Origin: Octopus vulgaris
Taxonomy: Eukaryota
NCBI GenBank assembly: GCA_951406725.2
Contig: OX597831.1
Coordinates: 53,134,001-53,198,000, forward strand
Reading direction: 5' to 3'
Length of the DNA stretch: 64,000 nt
This document shows positions 27,514 to 49,500 of the stretch, piece by piece; the first letter of the stretch is position 1; each line of letters starts with the position of its first letter. Made by a program: the position numbers.

Positions 27514-29359
27514 TGTTACTTGTTTCTTGACCAATGTCACATAAGCAACACTACAGATAACAAAAGTCCTACAGAGCTAAACTTTGATCCTTTTCTTTAC
27601 TCATACTTTCAACTGAAAAGCATCTCAAAATTCACCCCCCCTATTCTCTTTCTTACTATTATTATTGGTATTATTCATAACCTTATTGTCTTTCACTATA
27701 TATTTGTTTTTTTTTTTATTGTTTTTCATTTGTTTGTTAACAAGACTCTGTAAAATTATCTCATGACTAGCTCTCCCCCACTTTCCCTCACCTTCCTTCT
27801 CCTCCCTCCCTATCTCTCTTCTATCTTCTCCCACACACTGTGTGGACTAATCCATCTGAATAGCAGGGTACAAAAGTTACACTGATCTGCTTATAAGACT
27901 AACCTTAAGTGTCTCTGCCAGTTCAGCTTAAGACAGTTTCATAGGTCGGTGTTGGTCAAATGCCATTGACTTAGCTTGCTTCACTGACTGGCTGGCTTGC
28001 TGTAAGTTCTCTGTGTCTCGCTCTGCCTCTGGTTCCTACTCTCTACTGCCTACACCTGCCCCTGCTGTCAATGGAAGCTCAAGCTATGTATGATGATTAC
28101 ACAGTTGTAGACAAGACACACTTTCAGTGCTGGTGTGTCCTCCCTTGTCAGATGGCTGTCTTTTCAATGGTAGTACTATGTTCTAACTACCATTATATCA
28201 TTGTTGATTCTTCTACCGATTCCTGTGATGAAAATAATGTCTGGGCACCAATGTGAAAGAAGGAAACAAAAAGAATGAAAGAAAGAAAGAAAGAAAGAAA
28301 AGACTGATAGACTTTGAAAAACTGGAGCAAAACAAAAACAAAAAAAAATGAAAAAGAAGAAACAAGCGGCATTTCAGATCACCTGTGTTCGTGGAGATAG
28401 TGGTATTTGCGGCATTTACGGTTGTGAGTGCTGTTCTGTAAAGAATGGTCAGTTTGTATATTCACACACATATGAAAACACATACATCTCTACATGCACA
28501 CACACACACACATACAGAGGCACACGTTATACATATTTATGTAGATATGTTTGTTAACAATCAATACGTAGACACCTCATTGTGCTTGTTTAGTTTAACA
28601 TTTTGTTTTATGAAAATTTAGCTTCAGTATCTTTTTTATAACTTTTGCTATGTTTTCCGTTGCTATTGCTGCTATCCTTTCTAATTCTTTTTCTTTTTAT
28701 CCTCCACTTCATTCTTATTGTATTCATAGAATATCCATTTTTTTTTTTGTATGAAAATATGTTTTTGATTTCTTATTAGGCACTTTTTCTCTGTCTTTAA
28801 GAAATTTGTGTAATATTCATTGCAATTGGTCAATTCAGAAACAACAGTTACATATTTAGTTCTGCTAAGTACAATATACTTTTTTTAATGTTTTTTATAA
28901 TATTTTTTTCAAACTGTTAGTTGTCTTCTTATCAAAATGCTTTGTTTTTATTTATTCTAACTACATTCCCTTATGAAGAAATATAACTATATAACTTCAA
29001 AATGAAGTTATATAGTTATATTTCTTCCTAAGGGAATGTAGTTAAAATAAATAAAAACAAAGCAAACAAAATAGATATAGAGTAATTATTGGTAGACTAT
29101 TGGCACAGATGATTTGTTTTCATTGATGAAGATTTCTGTAGAACTAGCCATGCTTCTTTTTGGAAATGCTGGAAGCAGAAAGTTGATGCAAATGTTTGCC
29201 ACAAATTTTAATGAATAACATACCTCAGGCTTTTTTTTATTATTAGATTTCTCCATCTGCTGGGTTTGTTGCCTTTGCCATCATTTAGGATTCACCCACC
29301 CTGATAGGCCAAATGCACACCTGGACAACAAACCAGAAATTTCTAAGTCCTTGCATGTA

Positions 29360-29390
<31 letters not shown>

Positions 29391-46500: not shown

Positions 46501-49500
46501 TGGTTCAGATGTTTCCAAGATGGCCGAAAAAATGTCAATATTGACGAATGTTCTGGGAGACCCACAACCAGCAGAACTGAGAAAGACATCACAAATGTTC
46601 GTGCAGCTGTAAGGGGAAATCATCAAATCACCATCTATGAGTTATCAGAGGATGTGCAGATTAGTTATGGTTTAGTTCAGTCCTTTATCACTGAAGATTT
46701 GGGTATGAGATGCACGTCTGTCAAGTTTGTGCCAAAACTGCTTCCAGCTGACCAAAAAGACACTTGGGTTTCATTTGCACAAGATTTTCTTGATTGTGTT
46801 AAGAATGGTGAAATCTTTTTGAAAACTTTGCATAGACCTCTGAGCAAACATCGCCAAGCTTTTGGCAAAATTTGATGTAAATTTTCTGCTCAACTTTCTC
46901 TGTAATGATCAATACAATGATCACACGCTACACACCTTCCTTCCAAGCACTGCTGTAAACAGTGGAAATAAGCTAGAATGTTAAAACTTAGGGCATATGC
47001 ACAACAGAGTACAAGATCAATCTGAGCCAAGTGGCTTCACTCTGCATGCTTTAGCTTTGTTAATATAGCAACAATCCGGATACTTATTGATCAGACCACA
47101 CACACATACACATCAGAACCTGGTGCAGTTCCCCAGCTTACCAGTTTGCAATCAAACCGCCTAACCCATGCCAGCATGGAAAGCGGACGTTACAAATGAT
47201 GATAGCTATCAGCTTTAGCAGATTCTTTCTTTTAGTGGTTATCTTTGTCTAAATGCTTTTCCTTTATTTGGAAGAATGGTTTGTGACTTATTAGGGTTTG
47301 GATAATGGATAATTTTGAATGGATAAACTAACTCCTCTGAAGTTGGAAATATTGACTTAAGAAAGAAATGCATTTAATTTGTGACTATGACAGAACATAA
47401 AATACCTTCAGTTTGTCTGCTGCTTGCTATGAGGTTTCAAAGTAGTAATATATTGAATTTAGCAGGATTTGCATTACATGTACAAGTTTAGAATTTTGTT
47501 GTAAGTTTACTTGGAATTAATATTATGCTACCCCAGTTGCACCGTCCAACCCATGCCAGCATGGAAAGCGGACGCTAAATGACGATGATGATGATGATGA
47601 TGTGTATGTCTCTCTATAATTATTTTGAACAAAATAAATTTTGAGCCAGAATGAAGTGTTAATAATGTCTATGAAATATTAAATGTTATAGAGGGGTAAT
47701 TAGGAAGGTTTTTTTTAAAAATCAAGTTGGTGTCTAGTTTTGGATTCTTTATTGCAGTTACTTCCAGAAGCTAAAGTAGTTCATTTGTTGACTTTGTCTT
47801 GCACAGGACAAATAAAATCCACAAAGAACTATTGTGACTTAATAATAAATGAAAGGGTTAAGAAAATATCGGAGTTTTTATAGATAAAATTCCTTGAGAA
47901 AGATGAAACTGGGTTTTCCAAATTTTTTCATTTTTTTTAGCAGTAAAAAAGTCTGTATGTTGTTGATTGATGTCAAAAAGGATTTTTTATATGAAAGTGT
48001 TGGCCATTTCTTATTTTAAATTTAAAATTATAAACATACATACTCGTGTTGTTAGGCTACTATCTCTTATATTTTTCTTAGCATAAAATTAACCAAAATA
48101 TTTGAGAATCACTTGTTTTTTGTTGACTATAAAATGATCGCAATGTTTTTTTTTAATAACTTTAATTCTCACATTTTGTCAATCAAACTAAAAACAAACA
48201 AATAAAACCCAACAAAAACTAACTATTCCATACTAAATACTCGATATAAAAGCATCTAATATTTGTGATAAATGAGAGCTTTAGTCTGTCTTCTTAATTG
48301 GAGATTTGAGACTGTTGATGTTGAAATATTTAAGAAGCTGCTGGTTCTAAGTGGCAGGCCAGTGTCTCTTTACCCTTGATGTTGTTCACAGTGGAGAAAG
48401 TTTTATCTTACTTTAAATTTTACTCAGTGAGATTCAACTTCTCCAACTGCAAACTTCATCAATCTCTCGGACTTTCAATGGCTGCCAACAGTATGCATCT
48501 TCATTTTATTTCACTATGGTGATCGTTATTTATTTATTTATTTATTTATTTTTCTTATTTGAAATTAATTTGAAATAAATGTTTTAGTTTTATCCATTTT
48601 ATATGTTATATTTTTATTTCATATATTTTAAAATTAATTTATTATTTCTTTTGTTGCAATAAAAGTTATTAAAAAAAATCTAAAACCTCTTCATAACTTT
48701 ATTTAAAATTTTAAACAAAAATTAGTTGTTATACGATCTGTTGTTTACATTTGCAAAGAATGAATTGACTGAATGACTGAAATTAATGCAAAGCCATACA
48801 TAAGTCACTTTAATTTAATGAATTCTGTTTTTCTTTTACTTTAAATACCAATCTAGCTTTATGCAAAGTGTATAATAATTATGCTTTAAAGCATTTTCCG
48901 AAAACTAATACAATTTTCTACATGGTAAAATGTATTATTGATGAAAAATTCCAATCAAATCAAGCCATGATAGTGTGGAAGAATGACTTCAATATTTTTA
49001 TGCTAATTAATTTTGTTTATAGAATTCATCTAAATATTATTGTTGGTTGCAATAATTTAGAAATAGTAAGTCAGCTCTGTCTGAAGATTTGGTAGTAATT
49101 ATTGCTGCTAAATTCATGAATTTCTCGAATATTTTAAATAATTGTCTTAAGATCTACTGAATGGATGTCTGGAACTAAATTTGTATCTTTAACCCTTTAA
49201 CATTTAGACCAGCCATGTCCGACTCATATATTCCATCTCTTTTATGTTCAAACAGGCTAGATCATATAGCCTCTCATATCTATCCTCCAATGTCATTCTA
49301 AAAATAAACAATCACATCATTAAAATCTCGAAGTTATGAATTAATGCATGATTAATTCAAAACAATGTGAATCAATAAACATTACATTTGACAGAATGTG
49401 AATGCTAAAGGGTTAATAATGGTAAGGTTTGATGAAGTAGGTATCAGCATTTGGTTTTGCTTCACAGTAGAAAATGGGGAAGCATTAAAAATATATATAG

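What the first reader, a model, noticed from the sequence alone, without database searches (positions are those of the whole stretch)
27830..48462. Nested miR-750/miR-1175 transcription unit inside the giant SZT2 intron
Seen: both precursors lie on the sense strand within one 51.9-kb intron that is over 10x longer than its neighbours, 16 kb apart, in the order 750 then 1175. Established: mir-750 and mir-1175 are a protostome cluster, reported as gut-enriched in insects; SZT2 scaffolds KICSTOR in amino-acid signalling to mTORC1. Inference: a gut microRNA cluster is embedded in, and possibly co-regulated with, a nutrient-sensing gene, and has been stretched by transposon insertion. I do not know whether this host-gene link is published.
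Basis: partly seen in the sequence, partly recalled or inferred. Interest (0 to 1): 0.8.

Follow-up and report, generated by a model that had tools for sequence, protein, structure and literature searches.

The report
Conserved microRNA pair inside SZT2 intron
Two well-known invertebrate microRNA genes, mir-750 and mir-1175, do sit in the same orientation inside a very long intron of the nutrient-sensing gene SZT2. The genes themselves are ordinary, and only the untested idea that this host-gene link is ancient would be new.

Summary
A mir-1175 hairpin lies at 48383-48455 (+) and reaches Rfam's gathering score. A mir-750 hairpin lies at 32313-32393 (+). It is below Rfam's gathering score, but its 3p arm is letter for letter the published miR-750-3p of a snail. 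Both fold far better than shuffles and have canonical 2-nt overhangs.

Five phase-compatible exons on the + strand (116-9067) match human SZT2 residues 662-961 in order. The next predicted exon (60991-61121) has good splice sites and phase 0 but no detectable SZT2 similarity. The 51,923-nt intron is therefore a prediction. It is 12 times the largest upstream intron.

At least 24% of the intron is interspersed repeat, including mariner remnants.

Nothing in the sequence shows a separate promoter or co-regulation with SZT2. No searched paper links SZT2 with either miRNA. A Biomphalaria paper lists both miRNAs as intronic in a protein-coding gene, 7.3 kb apart. Drosophila lacks both SZT2 and the Mir-750 cluster.

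This is an ordinary intronic miRNA cluster with a possibly conserved host.

The parts
116..484 (+). SZT2 exon A
   Evidence: phmmer against the PDB: human SZT2 662-771, E 7e-15. Acceptor AG at 114-115 and donor GTTAGT at 485 read.
1288..1512 (+). SZT2 exon B
   Evidence: Human SZT2 758-849, E 7.9e-10. Splice sites read. Phase 2 in and phase 2 out.
2612..2690 (+). SZT2 exon C
   Evidence: The top PDB hit is SZT2 841-867, E 0.037. This is marginal alone but colinear with the other exons. Splice sites read.
4513..4649 (+). SZT2 exon D
   Evidence: The top PDB hit is SZT2 880-900, E 0.03. This is marginal alone but colinear with the other exons. Splice sites read.
8905..9067 (+). SZT2 exon E. It ends on a codon boundary.
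   Evidence: Human SZT2 904-961, E 4.7e-08. Acceptor after a T-rich tract and donor GTATGT at 9068 read.
9068..60990 (+). Predicted phase-0 intron of 51,923 nt that holds both hairpins
   Evidence: Boundaries read. 23.6% is covered by repeats found within the window. The 3' boundary depends on exon F.
32313..32393 (+). mir-750 precursor hairpin
   Evidence: Rfam RF03330, 33.7 bits (gathering score 60), E 9.9e-06 and 7.9e-04. Fold z -4.7. It lies in non-repeated DNA.
32363..32385 (+). miR-750-3p arm (seed CAGAUCU)
   Evidence: Unique in the window. 23 of 23 by eye to the bgl-miR-750-3p printed in PMC7328434. Position 32385 pairs with 32321, so against a 5p arm read as 32323-32344 the 3p end leaves a 2-nt 3' overhang (the 5p bounds are my reading, as the script's own 5p coordinates were wrong).
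32323..32344 (+). miR-750-5p arm (inferred)
   Evidence: 16 of 22 by eye to the bgl-miR-750-5p printed in PMC7328434. Pairing with the 3p arm is shown.
48383..48455 (+). mir-1175 precursor hairpin
   Evidence: Rfam RF03189, 51.9 bits at or above the gathering score of 51, E 1.2e-09. Fold z -6.4. It lies in non-repeated DNA.
48390..48411 (+). miR-1175-5p arm
   Evidence: 19 of 22 by eye to the bgl-miR-1175-5p printed in PMC7328434. Position 48390 pairs with 48448.
48428..48450 (+). miR-1175-3p arm (seed GAGAUUC)
   Evidence: Unique in the window. 22 of 23 by eye to bgl-miR-1175-3p. 2-nt 3' overhang.
46223..47097 (.). Mariner-like remnant between the two hairpins
   Evidence: 207-nt inverted arms, 84% complementary. 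The central ORF 46498-46875 (+) matches the mariner-derived DNA-binding part of SETMAR only weakly, E 0.06.
56199..56498 (-). Mariner transposase fragment in the 3' part of the intron
   Evidence: Mos1 transposase residues 49-146, E 1.4e-11.
60991..61121 (+). Predicted exon F (unverified)
   Evidence: Acceptor tttaatttcag, donor GTAAGT at 61122, open in phase 0. No SZT2 hit at E up to 10. No usable Atlas hit.

Best explanation
The two hairpins are the genuine orthologues of the protostome miRNA genes Mir-750 and Mir-1175. They lie 16 kb apart in sense orientation, deep inside the long intron that follows SZT2 exon E. mir-750 is about 23.2 kb from the donor. mir-1175 is about 12.5 kb from the predicted acceptor.

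They work as ordinary Drosha/Dicer substrates. A + strand RNA polymerase II transcript that covers both is cropped by the Microprocessor, and the 3p arms (seeds CAGAUCU and GAGAUUC) are the likely guides.

Shown here: identity, hairpin geometry, strand, and position inside the SZT2 unit. Because of that position, every full SZT2 pre-mRNA carries both hairpins.

Inferred: the pair is made mainly as one polycistronic primary transcript, with a promoter of its own somewhere in the 23 kb upstream of mir-750. Under this reading its output is largely uncoupled from SZT2. The intron and the spacer have grown by insertion of interspersed repeats.

My confidence in the shown part is about 0.9. The figure in the confidence field is for the whole statement, including the internal promoter.
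For: Identity: plus the mature sequences printed in PMC7328434 and PMC12261956.

Structure.

Host gene: five colinear, phase-compatible SZT2 exons on the same strand. They reach only to about residue 961 of a protein of about 3,430 residues (PDB chain length), so most of the gene must lie downstream of the hairpins.

The two miRNAs behave as one unit elsewhere:
- In oyster they co-vary and map together (PMC7488030 passages).
- In mosquitoes miR-1174 carries the miR-750 seed CAGAUCU by eye and sits about 200 bp upstream of miR-1175 on the same strand, with similar expression (PMC2797818 passages).

For a promoter of their own:
- Expression is midgut-restricted in Anopheles (PMC5292000 and PMC6505144 passages).
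- They have the highest sample-to-sample variation of all oyster miRNAs.
- miR-750 is among the 12 miRNAs that make up 86-94% of reads in whole snails (PMC7328434).
- That SZT2 is a broadly and weakly expressed gene, from which such patterns would not be expected, is my recollection and comes from no call.

Repeat growth: 23.6% of the intron and 28.9% of the spacer are repeated within the window. Mariner remnants are present. The spacer is 7.3 kb in Biomphalaria and about 200 bp in Aedes, against 16 kb here.
Against: - The window gives no sign of an internal promoter. CpG observed/expected averages 0.22, and the highest value in any intron window is 0.91, in AT-poor-GC sequence (GC 0.30) with 10 CpGs. 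The region at 27751-28250 is GC-richer (0.446) but has CpG o/e 0.13.
- No expression data of any kind were available.
- mir-750 does not reach Rfam's gathering score (33.7 against 60).
- Exon F has no homology support, so the intron could be longer or could be subdivided by exons I missed. I tested only one other ORF inside it, 54527-54835, and it had no SZT2 hit.
- The abundance and tissue data come from other species, where the host gene is not named.
Confidence: 0.5

Rival explanations
1. Host-driven only. The hairpins have no promoter of their own and are cropped from the SZT2 pre-mRNA intron. miR-750 and miR-1175 output would then follow SZT2 transcription, which is the reader's 'co-regulated with a nutrient-sensing gene'.
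For: Sense orientation inside the transcription unit. No CpG island or other compositional mark of a promoter in the intron. [quoted passage not shown] Drosophila lacks both SZT2 and the Mir-750 cluster, as expected if the miRNAs depend on the host locus.
Against: Gut-restricted, highly variable and very abundant expression of the pair in other protostomes fits poorly with a large housekeeping-type host. The host's expression pattern is recalled, not tested. Tissue-specific promoters often lack CpG islands, so one search is weak evidence.
Confidence: 0.33
2. Incidental, lineage-restricted linkage. The cluster sits in SZT2 only in this lineage, or only in molluscs, because a large intron is a large target. 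Under this reading the link has no functional meaning.
For: No searched paper links SZT2 with either miRNA. The Biomphalaria table calls both 'PCG - Intronic' but names no gene. C. elegans is said to keep an SZT2 homologue; that nematodes lack this miRNA pair is my recollection.
Against: The pair is intronic in a protein-coding gene in a gastropod as well. Drosophila lacks both the miRNAs and SZT2. Both points are single observations.
Confidence: 0.4
3. Model or assembly artefact. Exon F is not an SZT2 exon, or the 52 kb are misjoined, so the 'single giant intron' is not real.
For: Exon F has no SZT2 hit at E up to 10 and no Atlas hit. By my own estimate, not a tool result, a 43-codon open frame in 35% GC DNA has roughly a 5% chance per frame.
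Against: The window has no N. Exon F has a pyrimidine-rich acceptor, a GTAAGT donor and the right phase. Even without exon F the hairpins lie downstream of residue 961 of a protein of about 3,430 residues, on its strand, so they remain intronic unless the scaffold is chimeric.
Confidence: 0.1

Closest known systems
Mir-750/Mir-1175 cluster of other lophotrochozoans (Biomphalaria glabrata, Crassostrea gigas, Capitella)
   Same: The mature arms are the same: 23 of 23 and 22 of 23 for the 3p arms, by eye, against sequences printed in PMC7328434. Both map to one scaffold in Biomphalaria and are both labelled 'PCG - Intronic' (PMC12261956 Table 1). In oyster they map near each other and co-vary (PMC7488030).
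   Different: The spacer is 16 kb here against 7.3 kb in Biomphalaria. The oyster paper places two mir-375 copies nearby, and no mir-375 match appeared in this window at E up to 1. The host gene is not named in those papers.
Mosquito miR-1174/miR-1175 cluster
   Same: Same order and strand. miR-1174 shares the miR-750 seed CAGAUCU (by eye). That databases treat it as the Mir-750 orthologue is recalled. The cluster is midgut-enriched and co-expressed.
   Different: The hairpins are about 200 bp apart in Aedes against 16 kb here. The passages I read say nothing about a host gene. The PNAS 2014 functional paper (PMC4209991) was not held.
Conserved intronic miRNA clusters with conserved host genes, for example mir-12/mir-283/mir-304(1889) in an intron of orthologous genes of Drosophila and Anopheles
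   Same: A sense-strand cluster of old miRNAs inside an intron of a protein-coding gene, kept across lineages (PMC2797818 passage).
   Different: For mir-750/mir-1175 and SZT2, conservation of the host across phyla is not shown. Here it is shown for one genome only.
Mirtrons
   Same: Intronic origin.
   Different: Mirtron hairpins abut splice sites and bypass Drosha. These hairpins lie about 23 kb and 12.5 kb from the nearest splice sites and have extended basal stems, so they are canonical.

Membership tests
mir-1175 (Rfam RF03189) | Covariance-model score at or above the curated gathering score | tested here: met
   51.9 bits against 51, full-length match 1-72 of 72, E 1.2e-09.
mir-1175 (Rfam RF03189) | Mature arms and seed shared with described family members | tested here: met
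   3p 22 of 23 and 5p 19 of 22, compared by eye with the bgl-miR-1175 arms printed in PMC7328434. Seed GAGAUUC is identical.
mir-750 (Rfam RF03330) | Covariance-model match | tested here: inconclusive
   Full-length match 1-80 of 80 at 33.7 bits, below the gathering score of 60. E is 9.9e-06 locally and 7.9e-04 for the whole window. It is the best-scoring family at this place.
mir-750 (Rfam RF03330) | Mature arm and seed shared with described family members | tested here: met
   3p arm 23 of 23 by eye to bgl-miR-750-3p. The paper's table gives 0 mismatches between that sequence and cte-miR-750 (PMC7328434). The 23-mer is unique in the window, with 0 expected by chance.
Canonical animal miRNA precursor | Stable single hairpin with a 5p/3p duplex and about 2-nt 3' overhangs | tested here: met
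   z -4.7 and -6.4, with 0 of 200 shuffles each. Pair tables give 2-nt overhangs at the Drosha end of both hairpins (for mir-750 against a 5p arm that I placed by eye).
Canonical animal miRNA precursor | Small-RNA reads with homogeneous 5' ends from both arms | not testable with these tools
   No read data for the source organism.
SZT2 (KICSTOR subunit) | Sequence similarity to SZT2, colinear over consecutive exons | tested here: met
   In 5 of 5 upstream exons the best PDB hit is human SZT2, in order 662-961. Two of the five are marginal alone (E 0.037 and 0.03). Only about 9% of the protein is in the window.
SZT2 (KICSTOR subunit) | Function as KICSTOR scaffold in this organism | not testable with these tools
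   Inferred from homology. Reviews call KICSTOR vertebrate- or mammal-specific (PMC8534245), while PMC11836306 reports it in early-diverging fungi.
Sense-intronic miRNA cluster in a host gene | Host exons on the same strand on both sides of the hairpins | tested here: inconclusive
   The upstream exons are firm. The downstream exon F is predicted from splice sites and phase only.
Nested independent transcription unit | Own promoter or start site inside the intron | not testable with these tools
   No CpG island. The GTAAGT near 27830 is at chance frequency. No transcript data.
Mirtron | Hairpin ends coincide with splice sites | tested here: not met
   The hairpins lie 23,245 nt from the donor at 9068 and 12,535 nt from the predicted acceptor at 60990 (coordinates).

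The most novel reading that the evidence does not exclude
The Mir-750/Mir-1175 pair has been lodged in an SZT2 intron since the protostome ancestor. That would make it a deeply conserved pairing of a miRNA cluster that is midgut-enriched in mosquitoes with an amino-acid-sensing (KICSTOR/mTORC1) gene. The known loss of the Mir-750 cluster in Drosophila melanogaster would then be a by-product of the fly's loss of SZT2 and the rest of KICSTOR.
Probability: 0.3. Interest if true: 0.55.

Novelty: new member of a known kind. Interest (0 to 1): 0.3.

Why it matters
The miRNAs are textbook protostome families, and intronic miRNA clusters are common, so the locus itself is ordinary.

What could matter is the host. 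If the SZT2 link is ancient, it would add a conserved miRNA-host pair that joins a miRNA cluster, midgut-enriched in mosquitoes, to a nutrient-sensing gene. It would also give a simple explanation for the loss of the cluster in Drosophila, and a marker intron for SZT2 orthology in invertebrates.

The window also shows a clear SZT2 orthologue in a non-vertebrate, which conflicts with review statements that KICSTOR is vertebrate-specific.

Tried and rejected
- Pfam on 20 ORFs: nothing reached a curated cut-off. SZT2 is listed with an InterPro entry only (PMC11836306 table). A sub-threshold 'Pertussis_S2S3' hit (E 0.027, 14.8 bits against 27) on ORF 12276-12500 (-) is at chance level and was ignored. 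My guess that this ORF is a LINE tail found no support.
- Exon F: PDB search and Atlas gave no support.
- The protein-like ORF 54527-54835 (+) inside the intron has no SZT2 hit. Its best hit is E 0.26 to an unrelated kinase.
- Extra miRNAs: the whole-window Rfam search at E up to 1 gave 48 matches. Apart from mir-1175 and mir-750, most are (TA)n/(CA)n-type hits to mir-297, mir-466, mir-3149, mir-1277 and similar families. The rest are other weak hits (for example mir-3910, MIR6140, mir-7383, U6, SCARNA7). All are far below their gathering scores.
- My 90-nt hairpin scan of the intron, both strands, gave 21 hits. Three rows are the two known miRNA hairpins (mir-750 on +, mir-1175 on both strands). 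Most of the rest are near-perfect palindromes that fold on both strands, or low-complexity or repeat sequence.
- The mir-190-like hairpin at 32040-32116 scores 28.6 bits against 48. Its arms do not resemble miR-190; that comparison is recalled and by eye.
- The crude splice-site exon finder returned only repeat-derived frames and missed exons C and D. I found those by eye.
- The alignment of the two hairpins has 36 invariant columns of 81. That is suggestive of old paralogy but too weak to claim.
- Literature on a host gene: searches found none. PMC4209991 was not held.
- Cross-species synteny could not be tested.
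Full report
**Observation**

The window has no N and is 34.8% G+C.

A gathering-threshold Rfam scan of all 64 kb returned one match. It is mir-1175 (RF03189) at 48383-48455 on the + strand, 51.9 bits against a gathering score of 51, E 1.2e-09, covering the whole model.

A permissive scan of 32000-32800 returned mir-750 (RF03330) at 32313-32393 (+). It covers the full model at 33.7 bits, well below the gathering score of 60, with E 9.9e-06. In the whole-window permissive scan the same match has E 7.9e-04.

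Both regions fold into single long hairpins that beat all 200 dinucleotide shuffles:
- mir-750: -47.5 kcal/mol, z -4.7
- mir-1175: -32.3 kcal/mol, z -6.4

The 23-mers starting at 32363 and 48428 each occur once in the window even with three mismatches allowed, against none in 100 shuffles. The mir-1175 5p arm starts at 48390.

I compared the arms by eye with the mature sequences printed in PMC7328434 (passages and table):

| Arm | Identity to Biomphalaria |
|---|---|
| miR-750-3p | 23 of 23 |
| miR-1175-3p | 22 of 23 |
| miR-1175-5p | 19 of 22 |
| miR-750-5p | 16 of 22 |

That table also reports bgl-miR-750-3p as identical to Capitella cte-miR-750.

Pair tables give the 2-nt 3' overhang expected of Drosha cuts in both hairpins. 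My first 5p coordinates for mir-750 in that script were wrong. The corrected arm, 32323-32344, is read from the same output.

Neither hairpin lies in DNA that is repeated elsewhere in the window.

I therefore accept both as real. mir-750 is accepted on mature-arm identity, hairpin geometry and its partner, not on the Rfam cut-off.

**Host gene**

I searched the model exon by exon.

Five + strand exons have human SZT2 ('KICSTOR complex protein SZT2') as their best PDB hit, in colinear order:

| Exon | Coordinates | Human SZT2 residues | E value |
|---|---|---|---|
| A | 116-484 | 662-771 | 7e-15 |
| B | 1288-1512 | 758-849 | 7.9e-10 |
| C | 2612-2690 | 841-867 | 0.037 |
| D | 4513-4649 | 880-900 | 0.03 |
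| E | 8905-9067 | 904-961 | 4.7e-08 |

The two short exons are marginal on their own. However, they are top hits, they are colinear, and their AG/GT boundaries and phases chain together (read).

The upstream introns are 803, 1,099, 1,822 and 4,255 nt.

It has a pyrimidine-rich acceptor and a GTAAGT donor, and it opens in phase 0. This gives an intron of 51,923 nt, 12.2 times the largest upstream one.

That exon has no detectable similarity to SZT2 at E up to 10 and no usable hit in the protein atlas. The only other protein-like + strand ORF I tested inside the intron, 54527-54835, is not SZT2 either.

So the 3' boundary is a prediction. The claim that the hairpins are sense-intronic in SZT2 does not depend on it. 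Exon E is at about residue 961 of a protein of about 3,430 residues (chain length), so most of the gene must lie downstream on this strand.

I met no contig that I took for human.

**The intron**

A self-comparison found 442 repeat alignments. They cover 25.1% of the window, 23.6% of the intron and 28.9% of the 16-kb spacer. These are lower bounds on transposon content.

Tandem Repeats Finder reported 17 rows of short tandem arrays in the intron.

There are two mariner remnants:
- 56199-56498 (-) matches Mos1 transposase at E 1.4e-11.
- An 875-nt element at 46223-47097 has 207-nt inverted arms. Its central ORF resembles the mariner-derived DNA-binding part of SETMAR only weakly, at E 0.06. It sits 1.3 kb upstream of mir-1175.

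Growth of the intron and spacer by repeat insertion is thus plausible and partly shown.

The contrast in spacing points the same way across very different genome sizes. The spacer is 7.3 kb in Biomphalaria (PMC12261956 Table 1) and about 200 bp in Aedes (PMC2797818).

**Is there a nested transcription unit?**

I found nothing at 27830 that marks a start.

CpG observed/expected averages 0.22 across the window, with no island in the intron. The block 27751-28250 is GC-richer (0.446) but has CpG o/e 0.13.

A GTAAGT at 28002 is one of 38 in the window, against 36.9 expected.

A hairpin scan of the intron gave 21 hits. Three rows are the two known miRNA hairpins, and most of the others are near-perfect palindromes or low-complexity or repeat sequence. 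Rfam gave no further credible miRNA.

The DNA therefore cannot decide between an internal promoter and host-driven expression.

I lean towards an internal promoter, at about 0.5 against 0.33, because of what is reported elsewhere:
- The pair is midgut-restricted in Anopheles (passages of PMC5292000 and PMC6505144).
- It is the most variable miRNA pair across oyster samples, and the two co-vary (PMC7488030).
- miR-750 is among the dozen most abundant miRNAs in whole snails (PMC7328434).

That SZT2 is broadly and weakly expressed is my recollection, not a result.

**Comparison with what is known**

The pair is a known protostome cluster.

Mosquito miR-1174 carries the miR-750 seed (by eye). That it is catalogued as the Mir-750 orthologue is recalled.

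The hairpins are canonical, not mirtrons. They lie 23.2 kb and 12.5 kb from the nearest splice sites.

The two hairpins share 36 of 81 aligned columns. That is too little to claim paralogy.

**Novelty**

Full-text searches found no paper holding SZT2 together with miR-1175 (0 papers) or with miR-750 (0 papers).

In a looser search, 30 papers held two of the three terms. All 25 that were listed had no SZT2, and 5 were not listed.

Searches for host-gene statements turned up only the Biomphalaria table, which labels both miRNAs 'PCG - Intronic' on scaffold KE714253 without naming the gene (table). A search for octopus with mir-750 gave two papers, neither on cephalopod miRNAs by their titles and abstracts, which is all I saw of them.

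Supplements were closed. Datasets S1 and S3 of PMC6505144 and the supplementary cluster tables of PMC5121899 may hold host-gene information that I could not see. PMC4209991 was not held.

One suggestive correlation emerged.
- A review states that yeasts and Drosophila lack the entire KICSTOR complex while C. elegans keeps only an SZT2 homologue (PMC8534245 section 16). A 2026 preprint repeats the point for Drosophila.
- The insect miRNA survey states that the Mir-750 cluster is lost in D. melanogaster (PMC5121899 section 8).

Co-absence in one lineage fits a host-linked cluster, but it is a single case.

**Verdict**

This is an ordinary sense-intronic cluster of two known miRNAs in a transposon-swollen intron of a clear SZT2 orthologue. 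The host link appears unpublished in the searchable literature and is cheaply testable in public genomes. Its interest depends on whether it proves ancient.

Noticed in passing
window 32040-32116 (+): An AT-rich hairpin about 200 nt upstream of mir-750 folds at -20.9 kcal/mol, z -3.7. It gives a sub-threshold mir-190 match at 28.6 bits against 48. Its arms do not look like miR-190 (recalled, by eye). It could be a lineage-specific cluster member or chance.
   Followed up: partly
window 22398-22490, 28956-29047, 34538-34630, 38928-39020, 20108-20200: Near-perfect palindromes of 80-90 nt fold at up to -57 kcal/mol on both strands. One gives a sub-threshold mir-3910 match. They look like MITE-type or foldback elements rather than miRNA genes.
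   Followed up: partly
window 46223-47097 and 56199-56498 (-): Two mariner-type transposon remnants lie in the intron. One has 207-nt inverted arms, 84% complementary. The other matches Mos1 transposase at E 1.4e-11.
   Followed up: yes
whole window, e.g. 52977-53496, 53876-54216, 23748-24142, 5695-5937: A short interspersed repeat family recurs up to 16 times within 64 kb. It yields recurring pseudo-peptide motifs in ORF lists and was not classified.
   Followed up: no
whole window: CpG is strongly depleted. Mean observed/expected is 0.22 at 35% G+C. This fits heavy germline methylation of this gene body or a strong mutational bias.
   Followed up: no
window 116-9067 (+): A clear SZT2 orthologue is present in a genome that carries protostome-only miRNAs. 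Review passages call KICSTOR mammal-specific or absent from non-vertebrates (PMC8534245). PMC11836306 reports it in early-diverging fungi.
   Followed up: partly
window 9338-9377 (+): A weak, fragmentary U6 snRNA-like match at 24.6 bits against a gathering score of 44, E 0.071. It is probably a pseudogene fragment or chance.
   Followed up: no
window 54527-54835 (+): A 102-codon open frame with a protein-like look lies inside the intron. It has no Pfam hit and no PDB hit, best E 0.26. Its origin is unknown.
   Followed up: partly
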